The notes beneath the pieces are model-generated. The model worked only from the letters and a program-made list of their open reading frames with translations. It searched no databases and was not told the origin of the DNA. Source: Anaerolineales bacterium (GTDB taxonomy: Bacteria > Chloroflexota > Anaerolineae > Anaerolineales > RBG-16-64-43). From it: a stretch of 43,168 bases of DNA. The translations under genes and the position numbers were made by a program. Positions 6,167 through 40,802 of the stretch are shown here, one piece after another. Each line of letters opens with the position of its first letter. Position 1 is the stretch's first letter. The DNA lies in contig JBJYXS010000364.1 of assembly GCA_046260075.1 (NCBI GenBank), positions 1 through 43,168 of the forward strand. Reading direction: 5' to 3'.

Positions 6167-6290
6167 CCGCCGATCGACGATTGTCTTTTTCCGATCCCCT
6201 TTCATCATTCTTCGACTGCATGCGGATGGACCGGTTCGCTCCCCGGCTATGGTCGATGGTCCATGGTCCATCGCCGATCTTTCCCCTGTC

Positions 6291-6319
6291 TTGATGAGAT
6301 CATCCCCGCCGGGTACAAT
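6291..6319 (+). promoter_or_regulatory. Sigma70-like promoter for the CpXC gene
   Basis: TTGATG (6291-6296), 17-nt spacer, TACAAT (6314-6319). Confidence 0.45.
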
Positions 6320-6375
6320 TCGCCATTCCTCCCTTGGTCAACCGCTCCTCCGGAGAATATGCTGAAAGGAATCTC

Positions 6376-7734
6376 ATGCCGCCTTTTACCACAACCATTA
6401 AGTGCCCGAACTGCTCCACGCCGCAGCCTGCCGCCATCGAGCAAGTCATCGACGTCGCCCAGGATCCCGCCGCTAAAACGCGCCTGCTGCAGGGACAGTT
6501 GAACTTCTTTGTGTGTCCGTCATGCGGCTTCCAGGGAACGCTGTCCACCCCGCTGGTGTACCACGACCCGGTGAAGGAATTATTGCTAACCTTTGTCCCG
6601 CCGGAAGCGCCGCTGACCGCCATGGAACAAGAGAAAGCCCTGGGAGCGTTGATCCAGCAGGTGATGCAATCCCTGCCCGCCGAACAGCGCAAAGGGTACC
6701 TCCTGCGCCCGCAGGCCGTCCTCACCGCACAGGGGCTGGTCGAACGGGTTCTGGAAGCCGATGGGATCACCAAGGAAATGCTGGAGCAACAACGCGCTAA
6801 ATCCCGGCTCGTCCGCGAGTTGATCGAGGCGGAACCGGACGCCCGGCGGGAACTGATCGCCAAACAGGATAAACGGATCGACGCGGATGTGCTGGCTCTG
6901 ATCTCCGTCATCGCCCGTTCGGCATCCGCCCAGAAGGATGAGGCCTTTGCCAAGCAGGCGCTCGCCGCCCGCGAAGATGTCCTCCACCAATCCACGGCCG
7001 GTAAACGATCCTTGGCCCAACAGGAGGAAATGGACCACGCCGCCCGCGATCTGCAGGGCCTGGGGAAGGAATTCAACATCGATTCGCTCGTCCGGCTGGT
7101 CGCCGCCGCCCCTTCGCTGGACCGGGTCACCGCTCTGGCGGCTCTCGCCTGGCAGGTGATGGATTATTCATTCTTCCAGCGCTTTACGGAAAATCTGGAA
7201 AAAGCCTCCGGAACCGAACGGGAGCGGCTGACGGCGATCCGCGACCGGGCCCTCCTCGAGGTGCAACGGGTGCAGCAGGCCGTGCAATCCGAAATGAACC
7301 TCACCGCCGGGGTGCTGCAGAGCATCCTCCAGGCGCCGGATCTGGATGCCGCCGTCGAGCAGTACCTGCCCGAATGCAACGATTTGTTCTTCGCCATCCT
7401 CGAAGCGAATCTGGAAACCGCCCGCCGAGAAAAGCAGGAAGAGAACGCGAAGCGGCTGGAGGAGGTCAAGACCAAGATCTTCGCCGCCCTGGAAAAATCC
7501 CTGCCCCCCGAATTGCGGCTCCTCCGCGAACTGCTCGAAAAGGAAACCGATGAACAGGCCGAGGCGTTGCTCTCCGAACGGGCGGCCGAAATCACGGAGG
7601 CCTTCGTCTCCGCGTTGAAGCACACCGTTGAGGACTTGGAATCCGGTCCGGAAGATCCGCGGGGCAAACGCATGAAGCGGCTGTTGGAACTCGCCGAAAA
7701 GCAGCTTGCGATGGCGAAGTTCGCCGGGAAGTAG
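6376..7734 (+). CDS. CpXC-type zinc-ribbon domain protein with a long acidic alpha-helical C-terminal extension
   Basis: ATG 6376 preceded by AAAGGAA. The N-terminus MPPFTTTIKCPNCS...FFVCPSCGF contains two CPxC motifs about 36 residues apart. The remaining ~330 aa are E/A/L/Q/R-rich and predicted helical. Function unknown. Confidence 0.7.
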   Translation: MPPFTTTIKCPNCSTPQPAAIEQVIDVAQDPAAKTRLLQGQLNFFVCPSCGFQGTLSTPLVYHDPVKELLLTFVPPEAPLTAMEQEKALGALIQQVMQSLPAEQRKGYLLRPQAVLTAQGLVERVLEADGITKEMLEQQRAKSRLVRELIEAEPDARRELIAKQDKRIDADVLALISVIARSASAQKDEAFAKQALAAREDVLHQSTAGKRSLAQQEEMDHAARDLQGLGKEFNIDSLVRLVAAAPSLDRVTALAALAWQVMDYSFFQRFTENLEKASGTERERLTAIRDRALLEVQRVQQAVQSEMNLTAGVLQSILQAPDLDAAVEQYLPECNDLFFAILEANLETARREKQEENAKRLEEVKTKIFAALEKSLPPELRLLRELLEKETDEQAEALLSERAAEITEAFVSALKHTVEDLESGPEDPRGKRMKRLLELAEKQLAMAKFAGK

Positions 7735-29154: not shown

Positions 29155-30858
29155 CTATATCGCTTTCAGGTTGAGTTCCGCTAGATACTTCTCCCGGTTG
29201 GCGCCGCGCGCGATCTTGCCGGAGCTGGTTTTCAACAACCAGCCGCGGTCCACCACCCGGACCTGGCGCAGGGCGATGTCGGATCCGCGGGTCACCCGCC
29301 GCCGGATCTCCTCCGCCAGTTGCTCTCCGTCGCGCTCACCCCCATCGGCGGCGGTTTCCGGAGAATCCCGCTCCGCCACGATCACGACGTTTTCGGTTCC
29401 CATTTCCTCGCTGTACACTCCGAAGGCGACCACCCGTCCGGGATGCACACCCGGCACCTCCGAGGCCAGCAATTCCAGGTCCTGGGGATACACGTTCTTT
29501 CCCCCCACGATGATGAGGTCCTTCTTCCGTCCGGTGATGTACACCTCGCCGCCGGCCAGGTACCCGAGGTCGCCGGTGAGGAACCAGCCCTCGTGGAAGG
29601 CCTTCGCGGTCAGGTCGGGCCTGCGGTAATACTCCGTCAGCATGCAATCGCTGCGCAACATCACCTCCCCCAAATGGCGTTCGGGAAGTTCCGCGCGCGC
29701 ATCATCGACGATCCGCACCGCGGCGTTCTCCACCGGGGGGCCGCAGGAGAGCATGTTCATCGCTTCCTCACCGTCTTGCGACGGGCGGGCGACCCGGTCG
29801 ACGAGCAGCCCGCGCTGGCTGACCGCGTCGACCGTCACCGGCGCCCCGATCCCGCCTTGGGTGACGGCGAAAACGTTCTCGGCCATCGCGTAGCATGTGG
29901 CCAGCGCGCTCTCCCGCAACCCGAATCCCCGGAACCGGTCCAGGAACTTGCGGTGGCTCTGGTAATGCATCGGTTCGGAGCAGTTGATGATCGCCCGCCA
30001 GGAGGAAAGATCCACATCCTCCAGCTGGCGGTCGCGGATTTTCTGCGCGCAGAAGTTATAGGCGAAGTTCGGCAGCCAGGAGAGGGTCCCGCGGTGAGCC
30101 GACACCGCCTGCAGCAATTTGTACGGCGCGCGGACCCAATCGAAGGGCGACATCAGGACGAGCGGGATTCCCTCCAGAATCGGCAGCAGAAAGCCCGCGA
30201 TCAACCCCATATCGTGATAGAGCGGCAGCCAGGAAACGATCGTATCCTCCGGGCGCAGCCGGACGGCCCGGCCGTATACATCCAACTGCCGGAAGACGGC
30301 GCGATGGGAAAGCGCCACTCCCTTCTGCAAACCCGTGGTGCCGGAGGAATGCTGCAGCAGTACGATGTCGCCGGGTTCGCGTTCCCGGCCGCGCATCGCG
30401 GAAAAATCCGGGGCGGGGCAAGTAGCAACGTCCGTCGTCTGCAGCACGCTGCGCACCGGCCCGCCGGACGGGATGGCGTCCTGCACTTCATTCAGAAACT
30501 CCGGATAGGTCACCACCGCAGCCGGCTGGGTTACGGAAAATAATGATTTAAGCGACCGGCGGTAGGATTCCGGCGAGAGTTTTTCGGTGAGAAACGGCAT
30601 GATGGATGGAATCGCCCCGTGCAACACCGCGCCGAAGAACGACTCCGCCAACGCCTCGGAATGTTGGAGGATGAGGATGACGACTTCCCCGGGCTGCACG
30701 CCCGCTTTTTGCAGCGCGTCCGCGTAACCGGCGGCTCCGCAGACCAGATCCCGGTAGGACATCGCCCGCTCGGGTGTCCGCGGGTGCATCCAGTGGACTG
30801 CGGTTTGTTCCGGGGAACGGGTGTAGAGGTCTTCCAGACGCGCAAAAAAGGTGGTCAC
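29155..30858 (-). CDS. Adenylate-forming enzyme, fatty-acyl-AMP/acyl-ACP ligase (FAAL)-like
   Basis: 567 aa. LLQHSSGTTGLQKGV (A3 motif), YHDMGL, GWFLTGDLGY, GRKKDLIIVGGKNVYPQDLE and the C-terminal KTSSGKIAR. The GTG start overlaps the ACP stop (GTGA at 30855-30858). Confidence 0.85.
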   Translation of the reverse strand: MTTFFARLEDLYTRSPEQTAVHWMHPRTPERAMSYRDLVCGAAGYADALQKAGVQPGEVVILILQHSEALAESFFGAVLHGAIPSIMPFLTEKLSPESYRRSLKSLFSVTQPAAVVTYPEFLNEVQDAIPSGGPVRSVLQTTDVATCPAPDFSAMRGREREPGDIVLLQHSSGTTGLQKGVALSHRAVFRQLDVYGRAVRLRPEDTIVSWLPLYHDMGLIAGFLLPILEGIPLVLMSPFDWVRAPYKLLQAVSAHRGTLSWLPNFAYNFCAQKIRDRQLEDVDLSSWRAIINCSEPMHYQSHRKFLDRFRGFGLRESALATCYAMAENVFAVTQGGIGAPVTVDAVSQRGLLVDRVARPSQDGEEAMNMLSCGPPVENAAVRIVDDARAELPERHLGEVMLRSDCMLTEYYRRPDLTAKAFHEGWFLTGDLGYLAGGEVYITGRKKDLIIVGGKNVYPQDLELLASEVPGVHPGRVVAFGVYSEEMGTENVVIVAERDSPETAADGGERDGEQLAEEIRRRVTRGSDIALRQVRVVDRGWLLKTSSGKIARGANREKYLAELNLKAI

Positions 30859-31109
30859 TGCGGGGTTTGCCTGGCTTGGATCACCGCCGCCAACTCCGAC
30901 AGCGTATCGAAGGTCTGGGCGTTCAGCTCCGTATCATCGATGTGCACGCCGAAGGTGTCTTCCACGAACAGCGAGAGATCCACCAGGTGGAAGGAATCGA
31001 TCAATCCGGAGGAAATCAGTTTATCGTCCGGGGCGATGGCGCGCTGGGGTTGTTTGAGCACCTGTTCGGCGATATAGGCGGCCAACTGCGATTCGATTTC
31101 TTGGGTCAT
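30855..31109 (-). CDS. Acyl/peptidyl carrier protein
   Basis: 84 aa. The phosphopantetheine-attachment context SSGLIDSFHLVDL sits at about residue 38, and the protein has an acidic helical character. Confidence 0.8.
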   Translation of the reverse strand: MTQEIESQLAAYIAEQVLKQPQRAIAPDDKLISSGLIDSFHLVDLSLFVEDTFGVHIDDTELNAQTFDTLSELAAVIQARQTPQ

Positions 31110-31124
31110 CGGATTCTTGGCTCC

Positions 31125-32108
31125 TCAGGGTAGGTTCGGTCCGATCAGCTCCCGCCGGGCGCCGTCCAGCACCTGCAGCGCGGTCAGGTTGCGGATCATC
31201 CATCCGCTCCATTTGGAGTCGGGAAGGTCGAAGAAGTAGTTGTGGTCGCCGGGCGCCTGGGTGAGGTGGAAACCATCCTTGCTCAACCCGTGATAGCGCA
31301 CCGTCTGCACCGCTCCCCAGAAATTCCACAACGGGATGTCGTATTCCCAAGCCAGCTGGGCGATCAGCGCGTTGATCCGGTGGCCGCCTTCGAGATTGTC
31401 GGCCTTGGTCGCCACGACCGGCACCACCCCCTGGCCGACCGTGTACTCGATCACCTGGCGCAGATAAGTTTCGTACTTGACCACGTCCCCATCCCAGGCT
31501 TCCTCGAAACTGATCAGCGCCAGGCTGGGATTGTTCAGCCGCAGCTCGCACGCCAGCGGACTTTCCGACGATTCGCAAAAATCCGGATCCGCCCGCAGCG
31601 GATTTAAAGCGGCCGCCACGTTCAATCCCCCCTTCACCGCCAGGCTTTGACGGCCGAAGGAGCCTGCAAACCAGTCGATCGTGGTCTGCAGATCCGCATA
31701 CGGCCCGAGCCGGTACTTCTCCGGATCCTCGTAGCCGGCCAGGAAGAAGGTGGTGATGTTCTGACAATCGCCGATCTTGGAAAACACGCGCTCGTCGCGC
31801 CCCATCGCGGCGCCGGTTTGGAAAATCGCCTGAGCCCGGCCGGCGAAGGATGGAACCGCCGGGTACGTTTGCCATTCGTCCCCTTCCGGGGAGGGACGCA
31901 GGGTGGCCGTGGGGGTCGCCGTCGAACGGCCGGTCGGCGTGGACGCCGACGATTCCAGAGCCGCCGTCGAACCCGCGGACGGTGTGGCGGCCGGATCGGA
32001 GGGCTCGGCGCCGGGAGTCGCGCCGGCCGCCCGTCCTTCGCAAGCGGTCAGTATCATCAACGCTGCTCCCCAGACGGCGGCGGTGCGCGGCAAACGGTTA
32101 GCGGGCAT
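31125..32108 (-). CDS. Lipoprotein with an SGNH/GDSL-like fold in which block I reads GDC (Cys in place of Ser)
   Basis: Lipobox ILTAC followed by an S/T/P/A-rich linker. Block I-like FSKIGDCQN, block III-like VATKADN, block V-like SKDGFHLT (DxxH). Confidence 0.6.
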   Translation of the reverse strand: MPANRLPRTAAVWGAALMILTACEGRAAGATPGAEPSDPAATPSAGSTAALESSASTPTGRSTATPTATLRPSPEGDEWQTYPAVPSFAGRAQAIFQTGAAMGRDERVFSKIGDCQNITTFFLAGYEDPEKYRLGPYADLQTTIDWFAGSFGRQSLAVKGGLNVAAALNPLRADPDFCESSESPLACELRLNNPSLALISFEEAWDGDVVKYETYLRQVIEYTVGQGVVPVVATKADNLEGGHRINALIAQLAWEYDIPLWNFWGAVQTVRYHGLSKDGFHLTQAPGDHNYFFDLPDSKWSGWMIRNLTALQVLDGARRELIGPNLP

Positions 32109-33204
32109 TCTTCTCTTTTACAATCTCCATCATCAACCGCTCCGCCAGCAGGATTTCCCCCTCCGGTGTGCGGTGAATGGCGCTGTTGGTGAACTCCTCC
32201 GCCGGAACCAAGTCCCAGTAATCGAAACAGGTCACCTGATGGATCAGGCACCATTCCGCCAGCAAGGAGCGGTACGCATCATACGCCCAGCGCGGGTAGA
32301 AAAAATTATACCGGATGTCGCTGTTGGCTCCCCGGCTGATGTACACCGGTTCGTTGACGATCCACAGGGGAACCTCGCCCGCCAACGCCCGGCCGGCCGC
32401 GAGCACATCGAAGGCCAGGTCGTCCGGGTTAAGTTCCGGCGGCTGCAGTCCGTAGAAATCCGTTTCCTCCTCCAGATCCTCCTGCGGCGGATCGTATCTC
32501 TCCGGGATCGCCTGATCCACGCCGGTGGCGGCCCATAAGAATCCGTACAACTGCAGGCGGATCCAATCCGCCAACGACCGCCGCTCGCCCACCAGAGTCC
32601 GGTCCCACACCGTCGGTGTGATCAGCCGCGGATCGTCGGGATCCGACGCCAACCCATATTCCGCGATCAGTTCCCGCACCACCGCGGCATTGTGCTGCAG
32701 GATCGGCGAAGCCAATTGCTTGGACGGCGGGAGCGACTCCAGGGTGATCAGCCAGATGACAAGATCGGGATCGTACCGCATGGCATAGCGCAGCATCATC
32801 AGATCTTTCGTCGTCGACATCGTCGGGTACCCGAGGTTGTAGACATGAACCGCGCCGCCGCTTTCCCGGGTGATGTGTGCGGCCAACGTCTCCTCCGGAT
32901 CCAACAGAAACCCCCAGGTGGACGAATCCCCGATCAGCACCACGCGGAACGCATCCGGCTTCCGCGGGGCGGAGATTTCGTGTGCGGCGAACATCGCCTC
33001 CAGGTTGAACAGGCTCAGGTTGTAATCGGACGCGGGGTCTTCGCCGTACGGCAGCCGCACGCGCCCCGGGACCAGCCGGTTGTAGATGGAGATCCGTCCC
33101 AGCGCGGGAAGCAGGTCGACGGCGGCGAACAGCCCGTTGAGGGCCAGGAACAGAACCAGCGCCTTGACCAGCACGTTGCGCAGAAAGCGGTTGCGTTCAG
33201 ACAT
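32098..33204 (-). CDS. Membrane-anchored SGNH hydrolase/acyltransferase, DltD/AlgJ-like
   Basis: N-terminal TM helix (VLVKALVLFLALNGLFAAV). Block I VVLIGDSSTWG, and a C-terminal NSAIHRTPEGEILLAERL block V-like His region. It overlaps the next gene by 11 nt. Confidence 0.65.
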   Translation of the reverse strand: MSERNRFLRNVLVKALVLFLALNGLFAAVDLLPALGRISIYNRLVPGRVRLPYGEDPASDYNLSLFNLEAMFAAHEISAPRKPDAFRVVLIGDSSTWGFLLDPEETLAAHITRESGGAVHVYNLGYPTMSTTKDLMMLRYAMRYDPDLVIWLITLESLPPSKQLASPILQHNAAVVRELIAEYGLASDPDDPRLITPTVWDRTLVGERRSLADWIRLQLYGFLWAATGVDQAIPERYDPPQEDLEEETDFYGLQPPELNPDDLAFDVLAAGRALAGEVPLWIVNEPVYISRGANSDIRYNFFYPRWAYDAYRSLLAEWCLIHQVTCFDYWDLVPAEEFTNSAIHRTPEGEILLAERLMMEIVKEKNAR

Positions 33205-33222: not shown

Positions 33223-34665
33223 TCATCTGAAAATCCCGAACAGGCGGAGGAACACATCCGCCGAAGCCGCCGGGCTGGGGAGGGCGAACCAAACCCAGCC
33301 GAGGACGACGAAGTGGAACGTCGCCAGTATGGACGCCGCCGTGTAGGCCTTCTTCCACGCCGGCCGGCCCTCCATGCGCGGCATCCAACTCCGACTCCAT
33401 TCCCCCCAGCGGTTGTGCACGAACAGCCCGGCTCCGTGCCACAGCCCCCAGATCAGGAAATTCCACGACACGCCGTGCCACAGGCCGATCAGGGCCATCG
33501 TCGAAAACTGGCCGGCCAGGATGATGAGCCACATCGGGATCCGCCGCGGAGCAGAGCGCAGGGCGCGGGTCAGGGGGTTGAAAAAGTAGGAACGGAACCA
33601 TTGCGCCAGGGTGATATGCCAGGAATTCCAGAAGGCGGTGAGGTTCGGCTGCGTGTACGGGCGGTTGAAATTTTCGGGAAGGGCGATGCCCGCCCATTGC
33701 CCCAATCCCAGGGCGATGTCGGTGTAGCCCGAAAAATCAAAATAGATCCGCAGGGCGTAGGCGTACAGGAACAGCCATAACCATCCGGCGTCCGTCGTTT
33801 GCGCGGCGAGGGATACGTTCAAGGCCATCACCGCCAACCCATCGGCCAGTACGAACTTTTTAAAGATCCCCACCAGGATTCGTTGACCGCCCGGCAGGAA
33901 CGAATCGGCCGGACGGCTCGCGCCGGAGTGCAGGCCTTTGAGAAACCGGTCCACCCGGTCGATCGGCCCGGCCGTGACGGCCGGGTAAAAGACGACGTAG
34001 GTGAGAAAGTCGCGCAGCGAACAATCGGGCAACCGGCCCGTCATCCGGTCCCGCAGGGCATGAACCAGGCGGAAGGCGATGTAGGAAAAACCCAGCCAGC
34101 GGATATCCAGCGGCGAGGCCAGTCCGGGATCCTGTCCGTTCATCCGGCGCAGGACCGCCGCGGCCGCCTGGGCCAGGCCGTCCGTCTTCAACACCACCAG
34201 CAGGGCAAGGACGATGAAGACCGCCGCCGCAAGAGTCCGCCGGCCGGACCGTACGCTGCGCAATACGGCAGCCAGCACCAGCAGGAAAAGCAGCGCCGAA
34301 ACAACCCGGCCGATCTCCGGAGGGCGGCCCGGAATCAGGACGGCGGAGGAACCAAGATAGCGCGTCGCCGCCAAGCCCAGGATAAGTGCCGCGGCGACTG
34401 CGGCCGTCCCCGCATCCGCGCCGGTCACTCTCCAACGGGCGGGTTCCGGCGGGTTGTCTTTCCGGGCGGTAAGCGCCCAGATCAACACGGTCAGCCCGAT
34501 GGAAGCGGTCGGCAGCCAGAAATCGAGATGGCGGACGGGCAACGCCGGCTGCAGCGCATATACGGCCAGCAGGCTGGCGATGAAAAGAATCCATCGGCGG
34601 GCCCGGGGTATTCCGCCCGCCGCCAGGGAAACCGCCGCCAGTACGAAGATGTCGGTTAGTGTCAT
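33223..34665 (-). CDS. MBOAT-family membrane-bound O-acyltransferase (DltB/AlgI-like)
   Basis: 480 aa, polytopic. FWNSWHITLAQWFRSYFFNPL and GLWHGVSWNFLIWGLWHGAG are the conserved MBOAT His blocks. Confidence 0.9.
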   Translation of the reverse strand: MTLTDIFVLAAVSLAAGGIPRARRWILFIASLLAVYALQPALPVRHLDFWLPTASIGLTVLIWALTARKDNPPEPARWRVTGADAGTAAVAAALILGLAATRYLGSSAVLIPGRPPEIGRVVSALLFLLVLAAVLRSVRSGRRTLAAAVFIVLALLVVLKTDGLAQAAAAVLRRMNGQDPGLASPLDIRWLGFSYIAFRLVHALRDRMTGRLPDCSLRDFLTYVVFYPAVTAGPIDRVDRFLKGLHSGASRPADSFLPGGQRILVGIFKKFVLADGLAVMALNVSLAAQTTDAGWLWLFLYAYALRIYFDFSGYTDIALGLGQWAGIALPENFNRPYTQPNLTAFWNSWHITLAQWFRSYFFNPLTRALRSAPRRIPMWLIILAGQFSTMALIGLWHGVSWNFLIWGLWHGAGLFVHNRWGEWSRSWMPRMEGRPAWKKAYTAASILATFHFVVLGWVWFALPSPAASADVFLRLFGIFR

Positions 34666-34696
34666 AAACGGGGTGGGAACTGCCGACCGGAGATTC

Positions 34697-34831
34697 TCAG
34701 AATCCCTGGTAGATCCACTGCGGGGATTGGTCCGCCGTGAATACCAGGATGAAAACGGCCATCAGGCACAGGGCCAATGCGCAGAGGTTCTCCCGCGAAA
34801 ACAGCCACCGGCCGATCCGGCCGAAGATCAT
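34697..34831 (-). CDS. DltX-like single-TM microprotein ending in the hexapeptide WIYQGF (44 aa; 51 aa if ATG 34852 is used)
   Basis: MIFGRIGRWLFSRENLCALALCLMAVFILVFTADQSPQWIYQGF*. Its ATG overlaps the TGA of the upstream lipoprotein gene (ATGA at 34828-34831), and it ends 31 nt upstream of the MBOAT gene. In the track it is buried in the C-terminus of the 119-aa Arg-rich ORF 34697-35056. Confidence 0.5.
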   Translation of the reverse strand: MIFGRIGRWLFSRENLCALALCLMAVFILVFTADQSPQWIYQGF

Positions 34832-35196
34832 TGATATCCGCACATTCTCCATTCGCCGCCCTCTTTCAAGACCTTGTACGTGCGGTCGGCCAGGTCGATC
34901 TCCTGGATCTCGCCGTTGTAATCCAGCGTGGCTTTGCCCGTGCATTCGACCAGCTGGTATTCCCCTTCGGCGCCCGCCACCTGACAGGCGATGTTTTCCA
35001 GCGTGGCCGGATACATCGCAAACGTGTCGACGTCCGTGAGGGCGCCGGTTTCCCACGCCGCGCAGGAAACGGTCACGGCTTTGGTGGCGTCTTTATCCAC
35101 CAATGCGCGGAAATAGGCTTCCACGGCTTTCTCCGGGCCGGCGGATCCGCCGCAGGCAGCGAGGAGCAGGAGGATCAGCAGAATGGATTTTCTCAT
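34828..35196 (-). CDS. Small lipoprotein (NTF2/DUF4878-like), first gene of the cluster
   Basis: MRKSILLILLLLAACGG lipobox, followed by AVEAYFRALVDKD. 122 aa from ATG 35196; the track start at 35214 adds 6 residues. Confidence 0.6.
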   Translation of the reverse strand: MRKSILLILLLLAACGGSAGPEKAVEAYFRALVDKDATKAVTVSCAAWETGALTDVDTFAMYPATLENIACQVAGAEGEYQLVECTGKATLDYNGEIQEIDLADRTYKVLKEGGEWRMCGYQ

Positions 35197-35283
35197 TGTG
35201 TCTCTCTTCCACAAGGCCGGACGATCCGGCGGGATGAGATCGTTGACCGATCGGAATTATTGTAACATCCCCAAACACCGCAG

Positions 35284-36321
35284 TCAGACTTCTTCCAAGA
35301 TACGCGCCAACACATCCGCCAGCTCCTCCGGCTGGTCGAAGAATACGTCGTGGGCCGATTCTTCGAACCAGATCATCCGCTTTCCCTGCGGAGCATCCAG
35401 ACCTTCGTAATACGCGCGCGTCAGCTCCGCAGGGGCATTGTAATCGTAGCGCCCCGAGAGGAAGTACACCGGCACGTCGATCCGCGGCGCACTCTCGAAA
35501 AAATCCACTTCCATTAATTCCGGCCACAGCCGGCGCAACGAGTTTCCGCTGCCCAACGGCCACCAGGCGGCGTCGGCCAATGAGTATTCGGGGGCCTCGA
35601 GCAGCATCCGCAGTTCGTGCCTGTAACTCTTGGCCGTGCGGTATACGCCCCCGAAGGCCAGCAGCCAACGCCTTTGGGTCGTCAAATCGTCGTACCAGCT
35701 CCCGGCCCGGTAGGCCGGATCGATTCCGGCCAATTCCTCCGCGGCCTCCCGGTTGCCCGTCTCGAGCGCGATACGCCGGACATACTCCAACGACAGCTTC
35801 TCTCCTTCGGCGTAATCCACGATCTGGCCCACGCCGATGTAGCCGAGGAAATCCTCCGGACGGTCCTGGACGGTCCACAATCCCAAAACGGTTCCCCACG
35901 AAAATCCCATCAGATAGATCTTCCGGCCGCCGAACCTATCCCGCAGGTAAGCCACCAATTCCCGGGCGTCACTCCGCATCCGATCCAGGGTCAGGCCGGT
36001 ATCGCCCGCATTGAGGGTGTTGGTCTTTCCGGAGCCGCGCTGATCCCAACCCACCACCGTGAAATGATCCTCCAAGGCGGGGCATTGAATCCGCAGCTTG
36101 GCCAGGTTGGCGCTCCCCGGCCCGCCGTGCAGGAACAGCAGGACGGGATTCCCGGCGTTGCTTCCCCGGATAGAGATCCACTGCCGCAAGCCGCCCAGTT
36201 CCACCTGCGTCAGTTCGTTGATCGACGCCGGACCCGGATGGGCGAGCGGTGCGCGTCCGCAGCGGAAAGACAGCCCGCCCAGCACCGCCGCGGCAGCCAA
36301 CAGCAACAATCCGATCCACAT
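35284..36321 (-). CDS. Alpha/beta hydrolase (proline-iminopeptidase-like), signal- or TM-anchored
   Basis: ATG 36321 (MWIGLLLLAAAAVLGG) is preceded by GAAGGAGAA. HGGPG oxyanion motif and nucleophile elbow GFSWG. Confidence 0.8.
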   Translation of the reverse strand: MWIGLLLLAAAAVLGGLSFRCGRAPLAHPGPASINELTQVELGGLRQWISIRGSNAGNPVLLFLHGGPGSANLAKLRIQCPALEDHFTVVGWDQRGSGKTNTLNAGDTGLTLDRMRSDARELVAYLRDRFGGRKIYLMGFSWGTVLGLWTVQDRPEDFLGYIGVGQIVDYAEGEKLSLEYVRRIALETGNREAAEELAGIDPAYRAGSWYDDLTTQRRWLLAFGGVYRTAKSYRHELRMLLEAPEYSLADAAWWPLGSGNSLRRLWPELMEVDFFESAPRIDVPVYFLSGRYDYNAPAELTRAYYEGLDAPQGKRMIWFEESAHDVFFDQPEELADVLARILEEV

Positions 36322-36427
36322 CCTGTTTCTCCTTCGACCTTTCATACATGGATTCCAAAAAGAAACATCATCCGCTTAACTCTGCTTCGCATCCTCCCCG
36401 TACTCCCGGCGCCCGGCGTTTTTGGGG

Positions 36428-36456
36428 TTGACAAGCCGGCGCGATGTGATTATTAT
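36428..36456 (+). promoter_or_regulatory. Sigma70-like promoter of the PadR gene, with AT-rich direct repeats over and downstream of the -10
   Basis: TTGACA (36428-36433), 17-nt spacer, TATTAT (36451-36456). TATTATATGT (36451-36460) and TATTATATATGT (36465-36476) are direct repeats. ATGT occurs three times, at 36444, 36457 and 36473. Confidence 0.6.
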
Positions 36457-36499
36457 ATGTATAGTATTATATATGTCAAGTCCTATATTAGGAGAACTC

Positions 36500-37057
36500 A
36501 TGTCCCTCGAACATGCCATTCTGGGTTTTCTGAACTACCAGCCGTTTTCGGGATACGACCTCAAGAAGGTATTCGACACCACGGTCCGCCACTTCTGGCC
36601 GGCCGACCAGAGTCAGATCTACCGCACCCTGGGCCGGCTGGCCGAGCAAGGCTGCGTGAAGATGGAAAAGGTCGAGCAATCCAATCGGCCGGACCGCAAG
36701 GTCTACCACATCACCCCGGCCGGACGCCGGGAACTGGCACAATGGATGGCCGGCGCCCCACCGAAGGATCCGACCCGCAGCTCGGCGCTGGTGCAGGTTT
36801 TTTTCCTCGGCCGGCTGAGCGACGAGGAAATACTGGCCAAATTCGAAGGATATGCCGCAACGGTGCGCGGGATCATCGCTCTCTATGACGAACTGCCGGA
36901 AAAAATCGACGGGTATGCCCGGATCGTTGATTCTCCGCGCGAGGTGTTTTTCTGGCTGTCGACCCTGGATCTGGGCAAGCGCACCATGCGCGCCAATCTG
37001 GAGTGGGCCGAACACATTATTTCCCAGATTAAAAGCAAAAAAATTCCGCGCAAATAG
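36500..37057 (+). CDS. PadR-family transcriptional regulator
   Basis: MSLEHAILGFLNYQPFSGYDLKK...QIYRTLGRLAEQGCV...KVYHITPAGRREL is a winged-helix PadR N-domain, followed by a C-terminal helical domain. GGAG lies 5 nt upstream of the ATG. Confidence 0.9.
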   Translation: MSLEHAILGFLNYQPFSGYDLKKVFDTTVRHFWPADQSQIYRTLGRLAEQGCVKMEKVEQSNRPDRKVYHITPAGRRELAQWMAGAPPKDPTRSSALVQVFFLGRLSDEEILAKFEGYAATVRGIIALYDELPEKIDGYARIVDSPREVFFWLSTLDLGKRTMRANLEWAEHIISQIKSKKIPRK

Positions 37058-37097
37058 CGGCCGTACCCGCCGCTGATCCGCGTCAGGAGATATTTCC

Positions 37098-38701
37098 ATG
37101 GTTGCAAATCTAAAAAAACGCATTCCGGTGATACTGATCACCTGCCTGATCCTGATGGTTTCCGCAACGGCGGTCATGCTGTGGCTCTCCCGGGGATCGG
37201 GACCGGTGACGGTTCCCCCGGGTTCGCAAGCGGGCGATCTCTTCCTCCATCCCTGTCCGATCAAGTTGGACGGCGTCGAATACGCGGCCGATTGCGGAAC
37301 GCTGGTCGTGCCCGAGGTGCGCAGCGATCCGGATTCCCGCCTGATCGCCCTGCCCGTGCGGCGGATCCATTCGCCTGCTCCGGATCCCGCCGAACCGGTT
37401 TTCTTCCTTGACGGCGGACCCGGGGCGAGCAATATGGCCAAGACGCCGGAGACCTGGCTGCTGGAAAACCACGACTTCGTCAATGTGGGGTATCGCGGCG
37501 TGGACGGGACCCCGCGGCTGGATTGCCTAGTATTTTCCGACGCGGTGCATGGAAAGGGCGGCGATCTGCTCAGCCCCGTCTCGCTGGATTCGATCGGCGA
37601 AGCAGCCGCGGCCTGCGCAGAAGGCTTGCAGGCTGCGGGCTTCGACCTGGCGGGATACTCCATTCCGGAGGTGATCGAGGATATGGAGGCGGCCCGCGCC
37701 GGATTCGGATATGAACGGATCCACCTGCTCAGCGAAAGCTACGGAACGCGCGTCGCCCAAGTTTATTCGTATTGCATCCGGAAAGCCTGTTGCGCAGTGC
37801 GATGATCGGCGTCAACCCGCCCGGACACTTCCTCTGGCTGCCCCAGGATGTCGACGAACAAGTGGAGTACTACGCCGGCCTGTGCCGCAAGGATGCCGAC
37901 TGCGCCGCCCGCCTGCCCGACCTGGCCGGAACGATGCGGAAGGTCAACCAAAACATGCCCCGGAGCTGGCTGGGGGTGCCGATCGATCCCGGCAAGGTCC
38001 GTCTGATCGCCTTCGTCCTGCTTTACCACCGCACCACCGCGCCGATGGTCTTCGACGCCTATGCCGCCGCGGAAAACGGCGACGCCAGCGGCTTGGCTCT
38101 GATGTCGCTGTCGTACGATTTCATCGTGCCCAACATGATGGTCTGGGGCGAGTTCCTGGCTATCGGCTACAGCGCCGATTCCGAACCCGGCCGTGATTAC
38201 CGCGCCGACCTCTCCGCTCCGGATTCGATCCTCGGATCGCCGATGGCCGAACTCATCTGGGGTTCGGCGGCGGACTACTGGCCGCCGATCGTCGCGGACG
38301 GGGAAACCCGCGCAATCCGCCCGACCGGCGTCGAAACCCTGCTCATCAGCGGCAGCATCGACTTCTCCACCCCGGCCCGCTTCGCCGAGCGGGAGCTGCT
38401 GCCCGCGCTGGAAAACGGCCGGCATGTGATCATCGCCGAACAGGGACACACGGAGGATTTCTGGAGTTACCAGTCCGCCGCAGCGGAACGACTCCTGACA
38501 AGCTTCTACGACACCGGAACAGCCGATGATTCCCTGTACGAATACCTGCCGATGGATTTTCATCCACCGGTCAGCTTCCCGCAGTTGGCGAAAATCGCCT
38601 GCGGCGCCGTCTTGCTGCTGCTGCTCGGATTGGGGTTGGCGGCGTGGGGGATCGTCCGAGCATTTCGCCGCCGTTGGAGACCTACGGAACGGGGAGGATG
38701 A
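37098..38701 (+). pseudogene. Alpha/beta hydrolase (N- and C-terminal TM anchors) split by a frameshift near 37770-37775
   Basis: ORF 37098-37805 carries the oxyanion LDGGPGAS and the nucleophile elbow SESYG. ORF 37772-38701, in the other frame, carries the Asp (ISGSIDFSTP) and His (EQGHTEDF) regions. Adding one T to the short T-run in TATTCGTATTGCAT would give ...VAQVYSYLHPESLLRS... as a single ~535-aa ORF. Confidence 0.7.
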
Positions 38702-40802
38702 CGGTGAAACGGGTACCGTGTCCGATTTCGCTGTCGGCCAGGATCTGACCATTGTGCTGTTTGATGATCTGATGGCAGACCGACAGGCCGAGTCCGGTGC
38801 CCTGGCCGGGCAGTTTGGTGGTGAAGAACGGCTCGAAGATCCGCGGCAGGTTTTCCGCGGAAATCCCCTTGCCGGTATCTTCGAAAACCACCAACACCTC
38901 GCGTTCGCGGCGGCGCGTGGAAATCCGGATTTCCCCCGGCAGCCCCTCCAGCGCATCGAAGGCGTTCAGAATCAGGTTCAGCCACACGCCCTGCAGGTGG
39001 TCGCCGCTGGCCATAACGCGCGGAAGATCCGGATCCGGATCGAAGGCCACGGCGATTGATCGCGACATCACCTCATGTTGCACCAGTTCCAGCGTCTTAC
39101 GGACGGTCTCATTGATGTCGGTGCGGTCGAACCGGTACTGCTCCTTGCGGGCGAAATCCAGAAGGTTGCGCACCACCTGGGCGGCGCGGCTGCCTGCCGT
39201 CAGGATCAGATCGACCGACTCCTGCCATTCGCTGTCAGGCGGGATCGAACGCTGCATCAATTGGGCGTTGGCGATGACCGCGGTGAGCGGGTTGTTGATT
39301 TCGTGCGCCACCCCCGCGGCCAGTTGGCCCACCGCAGCCAGTTTTTCGGATTGGGCCAGATTCGCCTCGAGGTGCCGCCGCTCGGTCACATCCTCTTCGA
39401 ACAGGATCACCTGATCCACCTGCCCGATCGCGTCGAGAATCGGATAGGTGCCGATCTCCCATTCATTCGTCCCGGCGTCGGTGTCCGTCCGCCGCACCGC
39501 GCGCGTGGTGCTGTGTCCGGTTTGGAACGTTTCCGCCACCAGACACTCCGGGCAGGGGCTGATCCGGCCGAACAGCGCTTCGTAGCAGCACCGTCCCACC
39601 AGCAGCCGCGGACGGGATTGGGCACGCTGGGCCCGGCTGCGGTTGATCGCCCGCAAGGCATAGGCTCGGTCCACGATGTATAACGAGGCGGGGATGTTGT
39701 CGAACAGCGCCCGCAGCGTATTGCGGGAATTCAGCAGCTCCTCGCGGTTGACCTTCAGATCCAGGTTGACTACCTTCATCTGCTGAATCAGGCGCTTGTT
39801 GTACATCGCATCGGCCATCGATGTGGCCAGCAGACAGATCAGCTCCTGGTCGTACGGGGTGAAGGACCCGCCGTGCTTGTTGAACATGTCGAGCAGGCCG
39901 ATCGGCATATCGCCCGAACGAAGCGGAGCGCACAAGTAGGACCGCGGCCTTCTTCCGAGAACTTTATCCGCCTCCGTCACGACCGATGGCGGATCCACCG
40001 CCGGATCCGCCGGATCGCTCCAGCGGACGGGCCGGGGATCCTGCAGGCACTCCGACACCGGGCTGCCTTCCAGCCGCAGGGTCTCCTTGCGGAGCCAATC
40101 CTGGGAGTCGCCGAGGATTTTCCGCTCGAAGACCTCCCCCTCTTTGCCGACAAGGACCAGACAGGCGAACTCGCAATCCATGATTTGGCGGACTCCGGCG
40201 ACCATCGCTTTCTGAATGTCATCCAATTCAAGGTCGGAGGAGAGGATGGAGGCGATCATGTGCAGCGAGGCCAGCTCTTTATCGGCCGCATGCAGCGATT
40301 CCGTTGAGCGGGATATCCGCAAGGTTCTTCCCGCCACACGCGCCAGTTCCAGCAGCCGGTCGTATGCGGCGGGGGAAAAGGGATCCCCGGCGACGAGCAG
40401 CACACCTTGCCGGGAAGAGCGGGCGATGAGCGGGATGGCCGCAGCCAACTCCAGTTTGGGATCGGGGGGATCTTCTTCACCGGTTTGCTGTACGCGCCGG
40501 ACGACGTTCCGCAGGGGATGGGCCGGATCATCCCGGATGCGGTCCCAGGCCGCGGGAATGTTCCGCACGGCAATATGCACCGGTTGCTTTTCTTCGCTCC
40601 CTTGAACGATGATGGCGCCGCCCGGGCGGCGGACGGCCTGCAAGACGAAATCCAGGGCTTCCAGCGCCGCGGCGGGGAGTCCCTCCAATTCCGCTTTCAC
40701 GGGCTTCCGCCGGCGAAGGACTTTCCGCCGTCTGGAATCGCCCGCGCCCGTCCGGCGCTCGACGGACGGGCCGGACCGGGTTTCCTTTTTTTTGGGACAC
40801 AT
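38682..40802 (-). CDS. Sensor histidine kinase (GAF-GAF-PAS-HisKA-HATPase_c) with a four-Cys motif in the PAS region
   Basis: H-box [12 protein letters not shown]-box [12 protein letters not shown]1 EDTGKGI, G2 GTGLGLSV. The start is uncertain because there is no SD before ATG 40802. Its 3' end overlaps the convergent hydrolase ORF by 20 nt. Confidence 0.9.

What the first reader, a model, noticed from the sequence alone, without database searches (positions are those of the whole stretch)
34697..34852. Hidden 44-51 aa microprotein with a C-terminal WIYQGF hexapeptide directly upstream of the MBOAT gene
The ORF track shows only a 119-aa Arg/Gly-rich ORF here. Its last 44 codons have a quite different character: MIFGRIGRWLFSRENL (basic), then one TM helix (CALALCLMAVFILVF), then TADQSPQWIYQGF and a stop.

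The ATG overlaps the stop of the upstream lipoprotein gene (ATGA), which is a translational-coupling signature. The predicted topology is N-terminus in, C-terminus out.

From memory, DltX microproteins are ~40-50 aa, have a single TM helix, and end in a conserved aromatic-I-Y-x-x-F hexapeptide whose Tyr carries D-Ala between DltB and DltD. WIYQGF fits that pattern. If this is real, it is the acyl-shuttle of the operon, and it would be missed by any gene caller with a length cut-off.
Basis: partly seen in the sequence, partly recalled or inferred. Interest (0 to 1): 0.8.

Follow-up and report, generated by a model that had tools for sequence, protein, structure and literature searches.

The report
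DltX-like acyl-shuttle microprotein, Anaerolineales operon
A real, strongly conserved 44-residue membrane protein gene sits just upstream of a DltB-type acyltransferase gene and ends in the tyrosine hexapeptide these enzymes use to pass acyl groups across the membrane, so Chloroflexi probably run a DltX-style shuttle in a pathway fed by a fatty-acid-type ligase rather than by D-alanine.

Summary
On the minus strand, 34831..34697 encodes MIFGRIGRWLFSRENLCALALCLMAVFILVFTADQSPQWIYQGF*. Its ATG overlaps the stop of the upstream lipoprotein gene (ATGA).

It is a genuine gene:
- 62 of 78 related Chloroflexota loci carry the same micro-ORF directly before the MBOAT gene.
- In the P-x-W-I-Y-Q-G-F codons, positions 1 and 2 are invariant while position 3 varies freely.
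- A profile search finds 163 clusters at 50% identity. Tyr is invariant and WIYQGF dominates.

It is not hidden. NCBI already annotates this 44-aa protein as a hypothetical protein (MFN2299621.1).

The context fits a DltX-type acyl-Tyr shuttle:
- The MBOAT is DltB-like, keeps both key His residues, and has no fused FxYxxF tail.
- It is followed by a membrane-anchored SGNH-fold protein, an SGNH-like lipoprotein, an ACP and an adenylating enzyme.

That enzyme is FAAL-type, not DltA-type, so the cargo is probably not D-alanine.

By sequence the protein is not a member of Pfam DltX (PF12459). None of 144 family members hits it, and profile comparisons align only the tail.

Verdict: a new sequence family that most likely works like DltX, in a non-Dlt, ACP-dependent MBOAT–SGNH pathway. 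Function is inferred, not shown.

The parts
34697..34831 (-). Microprotein CDS: 44 codons plus TGA, MIFGRIGRWLFSRENLCALALCLMAVFILVFTADQSPQWIYQGF*
   Evidence: Translation. Homologues. Present in 62 of 78 loci. Codon-position selection. Annotated as MFN2299621.1. Start-codon survey favours this ATG.
34832..34852 (-). In-frame upstream extension (MENVRIS) that would give a 51-aa product; probably not translated as part of the protein
   Evidence: It lies inside the lipoprotein gene. An equivalent start is absent from most orthologous loci.
34700..34717 (-). C-terminal hexapeptide W39-I-Y41-Q-G-F44, the proposed acyl-shuttle motif. The Tyr41 codon is TAC at 34711-34709.
   Evidence: Sequence. Y is invariant and W, I, Q, G, F are each at least 90% conserved in 144 sequences. 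Hexapeptide counts. Positions 1 and 2 are invariant while position 3 varies.
34739..34786 (-). Single transmembrane helix, residues about 16-31 (LCALALCLMAVFILVF)
   Evidence: Kyte-Doolittle maximum of 3.13 at residues 16-30. AF2 helix with pLDDT 86-88. Substitutions across homologues are hydrophobic-for-hydrophobic.
34784..34798 (-). Conserved juxtamembrane cytoplasmic motif S-R-E-N-L, residues 12-16; role unknown
   Evidence: Invariant in close homologues. E14 and A18 are over 90% conserved in 144 sequences. No counterpart in B. cereus-group DltX.
34828..35196 (-). Small lipoprotein-like gene (lipobox LAAC, four conserved Cys). Its stop overlaps the microprotein start.
   Evidence: ORF. ATG at 35196. 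Conserved in 61 of 78 loci. Conservation pattern. Only weak family hits.
33223..34665 (-). DltB-like MBOAT, 480 aa, with His350 and His397 matching DltB His289 and His336. It ends ...FLRLFGIFR with no FxYxxF tail.
   Evidence: Pfam MBOAT 2.5e-19. TIGR04091 DltB 4.4e-63, 213.8 bits, below the 375-bit cutoff. PDB DltB 6BUG/8JEM at about 1e-37. Residue positions.
32098..33204 (-). N-terminally membrane-anchored SGNH/GDSL-fold protein, 368 aa (G92-D93-S94, His344); proposed acceptor of the acyl group from the shuttle (DltD role)
   Evidence: Lipase_GDSL_2 hit in 47 of 51 homologues. Invariant residues. AF2 pLDDT 88. Foldseek hits are all SGNH fold, including DltD 3BMA at E=1.3e-3.
31125..32108 (-). 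Second, SGNH-like lipoprotein, 327 aa, with G-D-C in place of G-D-S; accessory role unknown
   Evidence: Weak GDSL hits. Conserved in 56 of 78 loci. Conservation pattern.
30855..31109 (-). Acyl carrier protein, 84 aa, with a GLIDS phosphopantetheine-site motif
   Evidence: PP-binding 3.9e-07. ACP families, with DltC models matched only below their cutoffs. Found in 45 of 78 loci.
29155..30858 (-). FAAL-type adenylating enzyme, 567 aa, presumed to load the ACP
   Evidence: AMP-binding 1.5e-50. Fatty acyl-AMP ligase PRK09192 1.2e-106. The closest PDB chains are FAALs (3PBK 7e-70, 3KXW, FadD32); no DltA among the best 60.
35259..35287 (-). Sigma-70-like promoter match upstream of the lipoprotein gene; possible operon start
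   Evidence: Consensus scan, 9 of 12 matches with a TG extension. Weak evidence only.

Best explanation
Window 34831..34697 (minus strand) is a real gene for a 44-residue, single-pass, N-in/C-out membrane microprotein.

**Proposed function.** It acts as the trans-acting acyl shuttle of a seven-gene envelope-acylation operon: lipoprotein, microprotein, DltB-like MBOAT, membrane-anchored SGNH protein, SGNH-like lipoprotein, ACP, FAAL-type ligase.

**Proposed mechanism** (by analogy with DltX/DltB/DltD and PatA/PatB):
1. The ligase adenylates a carboxylic acid, probably a fatty or other non-D-Ala acid, and loads it on the ACP.
2. The ACP docks on the cytoplasmic face of the MBOAT.
3. The MBOAT (His397/His350) transfers the acyl group to the hydroxyl of Tyr41. 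Tyr41 lies in the extracytoplasmic C-terminal WIYQGF tail of the microprotein, which reaches into the MBOAT funnel.
4. The tail swings to the SGNH protein and acylates its Ser94.
5. The SGNH protein passes the acyl group to an unknown envelope acceptor.

**Shown here:** the gene is real and under purifying selection. The motif, topology signals, synteny and partner folds are also shown.

**Inferred:** acylation of Tyr41, complex formation, the nature of the acyl group, and the acceptor.
For: **The gene is real**
- 13 close homologues have an invariant TADQSPQWIYQGF tail.
- 62 of 78 loci found through the MBOAT carry the micro-ORF 0-164 nt upstream of the MBOAT gene. A 63rd has SIYQGF.
- In the tail codons, positions 1 and 2 have about 0 bits of entropy and position 3 has 0.6-2.0 bits.
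- There are 163 clusters in 1.84 billion representatives. Tyr is invariant, and 135 of the 163 sequences tallied end in WIYQGF.

**The motif matches the published shuttle**
- FXYXXF with an acyl-Tyr intermediate, in DltX and at the C-terminus of PatA (PMC12148441).
- FIYNEF in B. thuringiensis DltX and FLYFGF in S. thermophilus.
- F-for-W variants (FIYEGF) occur in the same operon type.

**The architecture matches DltX**
- 44 vs 48 aa, basic N-terminus, one TM helix, and Tyr 10-12 residues after the helix.

**The MBOAT needs a trans shuttle**
- It is DltB-like to the end of the DltB model, with only 20 residues left over and no FxYxxF tail.

**The partners are present**
- SGNH fold with GDS and His, plus ACP and ligase.

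**Linkage**
- The micro-ORF stays attached to the MBOAT gene even where the lipoprotein gene has moved.
- Chance control: 1 of 706 ORF segments in the window ends in this motif.
Against: - No hit to Pfam DltX PF12459 or to any NCBIfam model, for the window protein or for 144 family members. Genuine DltX scores 2e-21.
- hhalign aligns only the last 18 columns, at 7% probability.
- The family HMM scores real DltX at 1.5-6 bits, barely above scrambled-tail controls.
- BLASTP finds nothing.
- Position 1 of the motif is W, not F.
- Five related Chloroflexota loci have an MBOAT+SGNH pair with no micro-ORF, ACP or ligase within about 6 kb. A locally encoded shuttle is therefore not universal.
- The SGNH protein lacks the Asp of the DxxH block.
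- There is no expression, acylation or interaction evidence.
- A complex prediction could not be run.
Confidence: 0.78

Rival explanations
1. It is a genuine, conserved small membrane subunit of the MBOAT complex, but with a role other than acyl shuttle, for example assembly, stability or regulation. On this view the resemblance of its tail to FxYxxF is coincidental.
For: There is no detectable sequence homology to DltX. A second strongly conserved motif, SRENL, on the cytoplasmic side has no counterpart in DltX. Related MBOAT+SGNH cassettes exist without the microprotein.
Against: The most conserved part is the extreme C-terminal hexapeptide with an invariant Tyr, placed as in DltX and PatA. 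The MBOAT lacks its own motif. Only 1 of 706 ORF segments in the window ends this way.
Confidence: 0.1
2. It is an orthologous DltX in a true D-alanylation (Dlt) operon of a Chloroflexi bacterium.
For: The MBOAT's only NCBIfam match is DltB (4.4e-63), and DltB is its only PDB relative. The ACP weakly matches DltC models. DltD 3BMA is among the structural neighbours of the SGNH protein.
Against: The adenylating enzyme is FAAL-type (PRK09192 1.2e-106; PDB FAALs 7e-70), and DltA is not among the best 60 PDB hits. The DltB, DltC and DltD models are all below their curated cutoffs or not hit. PF12459 is negative. Gene order differs from dltXABCD, and two extra lipoproteins are present.
Confidence: 0.06
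3. It is a translated upstream ORF or leader peptide whose role is to regulate or couple translation of the MBOAT gene, rather than a stable functional protein.
For: It lies immediately 5' of the MBOAT gene (31-nt gap here) and is often coupled to the preceding gene: a 4-nt overlap in 13 of 53 loci and a 0-30 nt gap in 34 of 53. A hairpin-like repeat lies in its 5' end.
Against: Amino-acid-level purifying selection acts on a TM helix and two motifs over 163 clusters. Topology signals are typical of an inserted membrane protein. The same motif is catalytic in known systems.
Confidence: 0.03
4. It is not a separate gene. Either the 119-aa Arg/Gly-rich ORF (34697..35056) is the real product, or the ORF is a by-product of 61.6% G+C DNA.
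For: The mechanical ORF list shows only the 119-aa ORF in this frame.
Against: The upstream 75 codons overlap the conserved lipoprotein gene in another frame. In many orthologous loci a stop lies just before the 38-45-aa start. The third-codon-position pattern shows selection on the short frame. PGAP and JGI call the short gene.
Confidence: 0.01

Closest known systems
DltX of Firmicutes (Pfam PF12459; dltXABCD operon)
   Same: - A single-pass microprotein of about 45 aa with a basic N-terminus inside.
- An extracytoplasmic tail ending at the very C-terminus in aromatic-[IL]-Y-x-x-F with an invariant Tyr.
- Encoded with a DltB-type MBOAT that lacks its own motif, a carrier protein, an adenylating enzyme and an SGNH protein.

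   Different: - No significant sequence similarity.
- W instead of F at motif position 1.
- An extra conserved SRENL motif.
- The gene sits directly before the MBOAT gene, not before the ligase gene.
- The ligase is FAAL-type, not DltA.
- Two extra lipoproteins are present.
- The host is Anaerolineales (Chloroflexota), where no teichoic acid D-alanylation is documented in the literature I could search.
PatA/PatB-type (and, per the paper, other) bacterial MBOAT-SGNH pairs with the FxYxxF motif fused to the MBOAT C-terminus
   Same: The same proposed chemistry: an MBOAT His-dependent transfer to the Tyr of a C-terminal hexapeptide, then to the Ser of an SGNH partner (PMC12148441).
   Different: Here the motif is on a separate microprotein. 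The MBOAT ends without it. An ACP and a ligase replace the acyl-CoA donor. The paper states that such pathways lack a DltX-like microprotein.
DltX-like small proteins of Gram-negative dlt operons (Dickeya, Pectobacterium), as mentioned in PMC5541007
   Same: They are reported to share DltX topology without sequence similarity. They are a precedent for functional DltX analogues outside the Pfam family.
   Different: Those operons are described as dlt (D-alanylation) operons. I did not examine their sequences. The present operon uses a FAAL-type ligase.

Membership tests
DltX (Pfam PF12459 / NCBI 'teichoic acid D-Ala incorporation-associated protein DltX') | Significant match to the family HMM | tested here: not met
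   No hit at E<=1 for the 44- or 51-aa protein. None of 144 family members hits PF12459 at E<=10. In the positive control, B. thuringiensis DltX scores 2e-21 and 75.7 bits. In the reverse search, the family HMM scores DltX at 1.5-6 bits, similar to scrambled controls. hhalign probability is 7%.
DltX (Pfam PF12459 / NCBI 'teichoic acid D-Ala incorporation-associated protein DltX') | Single-pass membrane microprotein of about 40-50 aa, N-terminus in, C-terminus out | tested here: met
   44 aa. Hydrophobic peak at residues 16-30. N flank +2, C flank -1. AF2 predicts a single long helix. Topology is predicted, not measured.
DltX (Pfam PF12459 / NCBI 'teichoic acid D-Ala incorporation-associated protein DltX') | C-terminal hexapeptide FxYxxF at the extreme C-terminus with an invariant Tyr | tested here: met
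   The tail is WIYQGF-stop. Y is invariant, the final F is at least 90% conserved, and position 1 is W (at least 90%) or F in a few sequences. It departs from the strict consensus at position 1 (W for F).
DltX (Pfam PF12459 / NCBI 'teichoic acid D-Ala incorporation-associated protein DltX') | The Tyr is acylated by the MBOAT and donates to the SGNH protein; the three proteins form a heterotrimeric complex | not testable with these tools
   This needs biochemistry or multimer modelling.
Dlt D-alanylation pathway (DltA/B/C/D) | DltA-type D-alanine--D-alanyl carrier protein ligase | tested here: not met
   The best families are fatty acyl-AMP ligases (PRK09192 1.2e-106). The closest PDB chains are FAALs, and no DltA is among the best 60.
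Dlt D-alanylation pathway (DltA/B/C/D) | DltB equivalog (TIGR04091 at or above its cutoff) | tested here: not met
   213.8 bits against a cutoff of 375. It is clearly homologous (PDB DltB at 1e-37, with both key His residues conserved) but not an equivalog.
Dlt D-alanylation pathway (DltA/B/C/D) | DltC and DltD family matches | tested here: not met
   The ACP scores 24.8 and 22 bits against DltC models with cutoffs of 68 and 52. DltD PF04914 is hit by 1 of 51 homologues at E=0.21. By structure, DltD 3BMA is only rank 19 among generic SGNH folds.
Bacterial MBOAT-SGNH acyltransferase systems with a Tyr acyl-shuttle motif (general class) | MBOAT with catalytic His, plus an extracytoplasmic SGNH partner encoded together | tested here: met
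   MBOAT His397 and His350 align with DltB His336 and His289. The SGNH fold has GDS and His, with pLDDT 88. The pair is adjacent in 68 of 78 loci.
Bacterial MBOAT-SGNH acyltransferase systems with a Tyr acyl-shuttle motif (general class) | FxYxxF-type motif at an extracytoplasmic C-terminus, either fused to the MBOAT or on a partner microprotein | tested here: met
   It is not on the MBOAT, which ends ...FLRLFGIFR. It is on the adjacent microprotein.

The most novel reading that the evidence does not exclude
This microprotein would define a previously unnamed, Chloroflexota-wide family of split acyl-shuttle proteins. The family has at least 163 clusters at 50% identity.

The shuttles would serve a new class of ACP-dependent MBOAT-SGNH pathway. 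In it, a FAAL-activated fatty (or other non-amino-acid) acyl group is carried across the cytoplasmic membrane on a tyrosine and attached to an unknown envelope polymer or lipoprotein.

Together with the FVYQGL small proteins seen next to Actinomycetota MBOATs, this would mean that trans-encoded Tyr shuttles are a general, overlooked component of bacterial envelope acylation, not a peculiarity of teichoic acid D-alanylation.
Probability: 0.45. Interest if true: 0.75.

Novelty: new variant of a known kind. Interest (0 to 1): 0.62.

Why it matters
The Tyr acyl-shuttle mechanism was worked out only recently, for DltX/DltB/DltD and for PatA/PatB. The literature I could read states that MBOAT pathways other than Dlt lack a DltX-like microprotein (PMC12148441).

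This finding would change that picture in three ways:
- A separate, strongly conserved shuttle-like microprotein exists in a different phylum and in an operon fed by a FAAL-type ligase and an ACP. That would extend the split-shuttle design beyond D-alanylation.
- It assigns a testable function to a large set of 'hypothetical' 38-51-aa proteins.
- It points to an uncharacterised envelope acylation, possibly a lipidation, in Anaerolineae, whose cell envelope chemistry is poorly known.

It also gives a simple search rule for finding more such shuttles: a TM helix followed by x-[ILV]-Y-x-x-[FL]-stop next to an MBOAT gene that lacks the motif.

Tried and rejected
**Searches that found nothing**
- Pfam and NCBIfam scans of the microprotein and of 144 relatives: no DltX hit.
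- PDB sequence searches with the family profile and with genuine DltX: no DltX chain found, only noise.
- BLASTP, hhalign and a reverse HMM search against B. cereus-group DltX: no significant similarity beyond the in-register tail. The DltX set I could fetch was narrow, B. cereus group only.
- PDB profile search with the SGNH family: nothing by sequence. The fold had to be shown by AF2 plus Foldseek.
- Rfam scan of 34000-35600, both strands: only sub-threshold noise.
- Literature searches for Chloroflexi dlt genes, FAAL+MBOAT operons, 'DltX-like' and 'acyl shuttle': nothing describing this family.

**Could not be run or read**
- The key primary paper, Schultz et al. 2023 (PMC10664464), is not held. 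I could not check whether it already surveyed such microproteins.

**Readings rejected**
- The 119-aa ORF as the real gene.
- The plus-strand ORFs that overlap the region. These are artefacts of 61.6% G+C DNA.
Full report
**1. The observation**

The feature is on the minus strand. Translating 34852..34697 gives MENVRISMIFGRIGRWLFSRENLCALALCLMAVFILVFTADQSPQWIYQGF*. The mechanical ORF list shows only a 119-aa GTG-started ORF in this frame, 34697..35056.

The ATG at 34831-34829 overlaps the TGA of the upstream 128-aa ORF (34828..35214) as ATGA. That upstream ORF has a lipobox (LLLAAC), and its likely ATG is at 35196.

Residues 16-30 form the hydrophobic maximum (Kyte-Doolittle 3.13). The N flank has net charge +2 and the C flank -1. 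AF2 predicts one long helix over that segment.

Among 706 stop-to-stop segments of at least 30 aa in all six frames of the window, this is the only one ending in [FWY]xYxxF. The description is accurate.

**2. Is it a gene?**

A search of 5.8 billion proteins with the 44-aa sequence returned 13 homologues at 61-96% identity. All end in TADQSPQWIYQGF and all contain SRENL.

Using the neighbouring MBOAT protein, I fetched 77 loci from GTDB species genomes. Almost all are Anaerolineae or other Chloroflexota MAGs, with MBOAT identity of 42-68%.

With L001 added (78 loci in all), 62 have a micro-ORF ending WIYQGF or WIYQAF, stopping 0-164 nt before the MBOAT start in all but one. One more has SIYQGF, and three are cut by contig ends.

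Over 64 micro-ORFs, the codons for P-x-W-I-Y-Q-G-F have about zero entropy at positions 1 and 2. At position 3 they have 0.6-2.0 bits. The one exception is the single-codon Trp. This is the signature of purifying selection in this frame, and it dismisses the overlapping plus-strand ORFs.

A profile search against 1.84 billion cluster representatives found 163 proteins at E<=1e-3, 72 of them at E<=1e-10. Almost all are 36-90 aa. Tail counts were:
- WIYQGF: 135
- Others: WIYQAF, WLYQGF, WVYQGF, WIYQNF, WIYHGF, WIYQGY, FIYQAF, FIYEGF, FLYEGF and others

Tyr is the only invariant residue in a 144-sequence alignment.

**3. Which start, and is it hidden?**

In many orthologous loci the only start codon in the ORF gives a 38-45-aa product. 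That start begins between 3 nt before and about 20 nt after the end of the lipoprotein stop codon. The 51-aa start exists only in close relatives and lies inside the lipoprotein gene. The 44-aa form is therefore favoured.

The 4-nt overlap occurs in 13 of 53 loci and a 0-30 nt gap in 34 of 53.

The exact 44-aa protein is already in NCBI as MFN2299621.1, 'hypothetical protein ACK2UB_12305 [Anaerolineales bacterium]', on a 43168-bp contig. That contig is this window. JGI and ENA callers also called its relatives. It is unnamed, not uncalled.

**4. Context**

All genes are on the minus strand and tightly packed:
- **Lipoprotein**, 34828..35196.
- **Microprotein**.
- **MBOAT**, 33223..34665: Pfam MBOAT 2.5e-19; its only NCBIfam hit is DltB TIGR04091 at 4.4e-63 and 213.8 bits, below the 375-bit cutoff.
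- **368-aa protein**, 32098..33204.
- **327-aa lipoprotein**, 31125..32108, with weak GDSL hits.
- **ACP**, 84 aa, 30855..31109.
- **AMP-binding enzyme**, 567 aa, 29155..30858.

*The MBOAT.* It aligns with S. thermophilus DltB structures (6BUG, 8JEM) at about 1e-37. His350 and His397 match DltB His289 and His336, the residues named as key in PMC11035591. The DltB model is matched up to position 376 of 380, at residue 460 of 480. The protein ends ...FLRLFGIFR. It therefore has no room for the two extra helices and no fused FxYxxF motif.

*The 368-aa protein.* It has an N-terminal TM helix. G92-D93-S94 and His344 are invariant or nearly so, and 47 of 51 homologues hit Lipase_GDSL_2. The AF2 model has pLDDT 88. 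Its Foldseek neighbours are all SGNH-fold enzymes, including DltD 3BMA at rank 19 with E=1.3e-3.

*The ligase.* It is FAAL-type. Its best NCBIfam family is PRK09192 at 1.2e-106. Its closest PDB chains are E. coli FAAL 3PBK (7e-70), PKS-loading FAALs, 3KXW and FadD32. No DltA is among the best 60.

*Synteny across the 78 loci*:

| Gene | Loci with it |
|---|---|
| SGNH368 | 68 |
| Lipoprotein | 61 |
| Second SGNH-like lipoprotein | 56 |
| ACP | 45 |
| Ligase | 43 |

Where the lipoprotein gene has moved downstream, the micro-ORF still sits immediately before the MBOAT gene.

**5. Mechanism**

The published mechanism for bacterial MBOAT-SGNH pairs is as follows:
- The MBOAT transfers the acyl group to the Tyr of a C-terminal FXYXXF hexapeptide on the outer face.
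- The hexapeptide then donates it to the Ser of the SGNH partner.

In Dlt the hexapeptide is on the microprotein DltX. In PatA and other MBOATs it is fused to the MBOAT on two extra helices (PMC12148441). Known tails include FIYNEF (B. thuringiensis DltX), FLYFGF (S. thermophilus DltX) and FIYANF (N. gonorrhoeae PatA).

The window protein has the same size, topology signals and TM-to-Tyr spacing (10 vs 12 residues). Its tail is W-I-Y-Q-G-F-COOH. It is encoded with a DltB-type MBOAT that lacks its own tail, an SGNH partner and a carrier protein.

The best-supported reading is that Tyr41 carries the acyl group from the MBOAT to Ser94 of the 368-aa SGNH protein. Because the ligase is FAAL-type, the cargo is probably a fatty or other carboxylic acid rather than D-alanine. 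The acceptor is unknown. None of these chemical steps is shown here.

**6. Membership versus mechanism**

By sequence this is not a demonstrable DltX:
- PF12459 is not hit by the window protein or by any of 144 relatives, even at E<=10. B. thuringiensis DltX scores 2e-21.
- hhalign against a (narrow) DltX alignment aligns only the last 18 columns, in register, at 7% probability.
- The family HMM scores real DltX at 1.5-6 bits, against 1.3-1.5 bits for tail-scrambled and Y45F controls.

The family also has its own conserved cytoplasmic motif, [ST]RENLxAL, which is absent from DltX.

The MBOAT is closest to DltB, so the microprotein may be a very diverged DltX homologue. With 44 residues this cannot be decided. 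I file it as a new sequence family that works like DltX.

**7. Evidence against and gaps**

- Five Chloroflexota loci (L062, L063, L065, L067, L068) have only an MBOAT+SGNH pair next to gyrA. They have no micro-ORF, ACP, ligase or lipoprotein within the fetched flanks. Either a shuttle is encoded elsewhere or that variant works differently.
- The SGNH protein lacks the Asp of the DxxH block.
- No expression data exist.
- The primary DltX mechanism paper is not held.

**8. Novelty**

In the searchable literature I found no description of DltX-like microproteins outside dlt operons, nor of FAAL-ACP-MBOAT-SGNH operons in Chloroflexi. One paper states that non-Dlt MBOAT/SGNH pathways lack such a microprotein.

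I rate this a new variant of a known kind, of moderate to high interest.

Noticed in passing
L072 (stop 6588), L074 (stop 3057), L075 (stop 7287), L077 (stop 8125), L078 (stop 7936): In Actinomycetota (Ilumatobacter/Acidimicrobiia) loci with a distant MBOAT (32-36% identity), a small ORF with one TM helix ends in FVYQGL-stop. It lies after the gene downstream of the MBOAT, and a HAD-like gene lies upstream. This looks like another split shuttle family, with L as the last residue.
   Followed up: partly
L062, L063, L065, L067, L068 (MBOAT at about 5800-7400): Chloroflexota two-gene MBOAT+SGNH cassettes. In L065, L067 and L068 the next long ORF downstream begins with a GyrA-like N-terminal sequence (my reading; no family search was run on it). 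They have no micro-ORF, ACP, FAAL or lipoprotein within the fetched flanks, and the MBOAT has no FxYxxF tail. How these work without a local shuttle is unexplained.
   Followed up: partly
window 34784-34798 (-): A second conserved motif, [ST]-R-E-N-L-x-A-L, lies at the cytoplasmic end of the TM helix. E14 and A18 are over 90% conserved in 144 sequences. It has no counterpart in B. cereus-group DltX. It could be a contact with the MBOAT or the ACP.
   Followed up: no
window 31125-32108 (-): A 327-aa lipoprotein (lipobox LTAC, Ala/Pro/Thr-rich linker) has weak GDSL hits. Where block I would be expected (placement by my reading of the sequence), it reads G-D-C instead of G-D-S. The Cys is at least 80% conserved over 56 sequences, and several other Cys residues are conserved.
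   Followed up: partly
window 34828-35196 (-): A small lipoprotein (about 122 aa) with four conserved Cys and a conserved G-x-W-x-x-C C-terminus. It has no informative family hit. It is conserved in 61 of 78 loci, but in eight loci it sits downstream of the SGNH gene instead of upstream of the micro-ORF.
   Followed up: partly
window 32098-33204 (-), residues 340-344: The membrane-anchored SGNH protein reads N-S-A-I-H344 where SGNH block V normally has D-x-x-H. Asp328 is invariant and may substitute.
   Followed up: no
L049 5880-5972; L025 about 5880-6000: In L049 the micro-ORF has only 30 codons after a stop and no start codon, though the tail is intact. This may be a pseudogene or an assembly error. 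L025 carries the variant tail SIYQGF.
   Followed up: no
L079 1686-1802: The FIYEGF-tailed relative P0160 sits in the same operon type (SGNH, 122-aa gene, microprotein, MBOAT, 379-aa SGNH-like, ACP, AMP ligase). This shows that F and W are interchangeable at motif position 1.
   Followed up: yes
window 35284-38701 and 38682-40802 (-): In close relatives (L001, L002) a GAF-PAS histidine kinase lies directly upstream of the lipoprotein gene. In L001 a response regulator gene precedes the kinase. In the window the same kinase (706 aa) is separated from the operon by an insertion holding an alpha/beta hydrolase gene, a divergently transcribed PadR-family regulator, and one or two further ORFs (one with a TAP-like hydrolase hit).
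   Followed up: partly
window 34808-34824 (-): A G+C-rich inverted repeat (TCGGCCGGATCGGCCGG followed by a T-rich stretch) lies inside the first codons of the micro-ORF. The terminator scan flags it. The encoded residues (GRIGRW) are not conserved, so it is probably chance.
   Followed up: no
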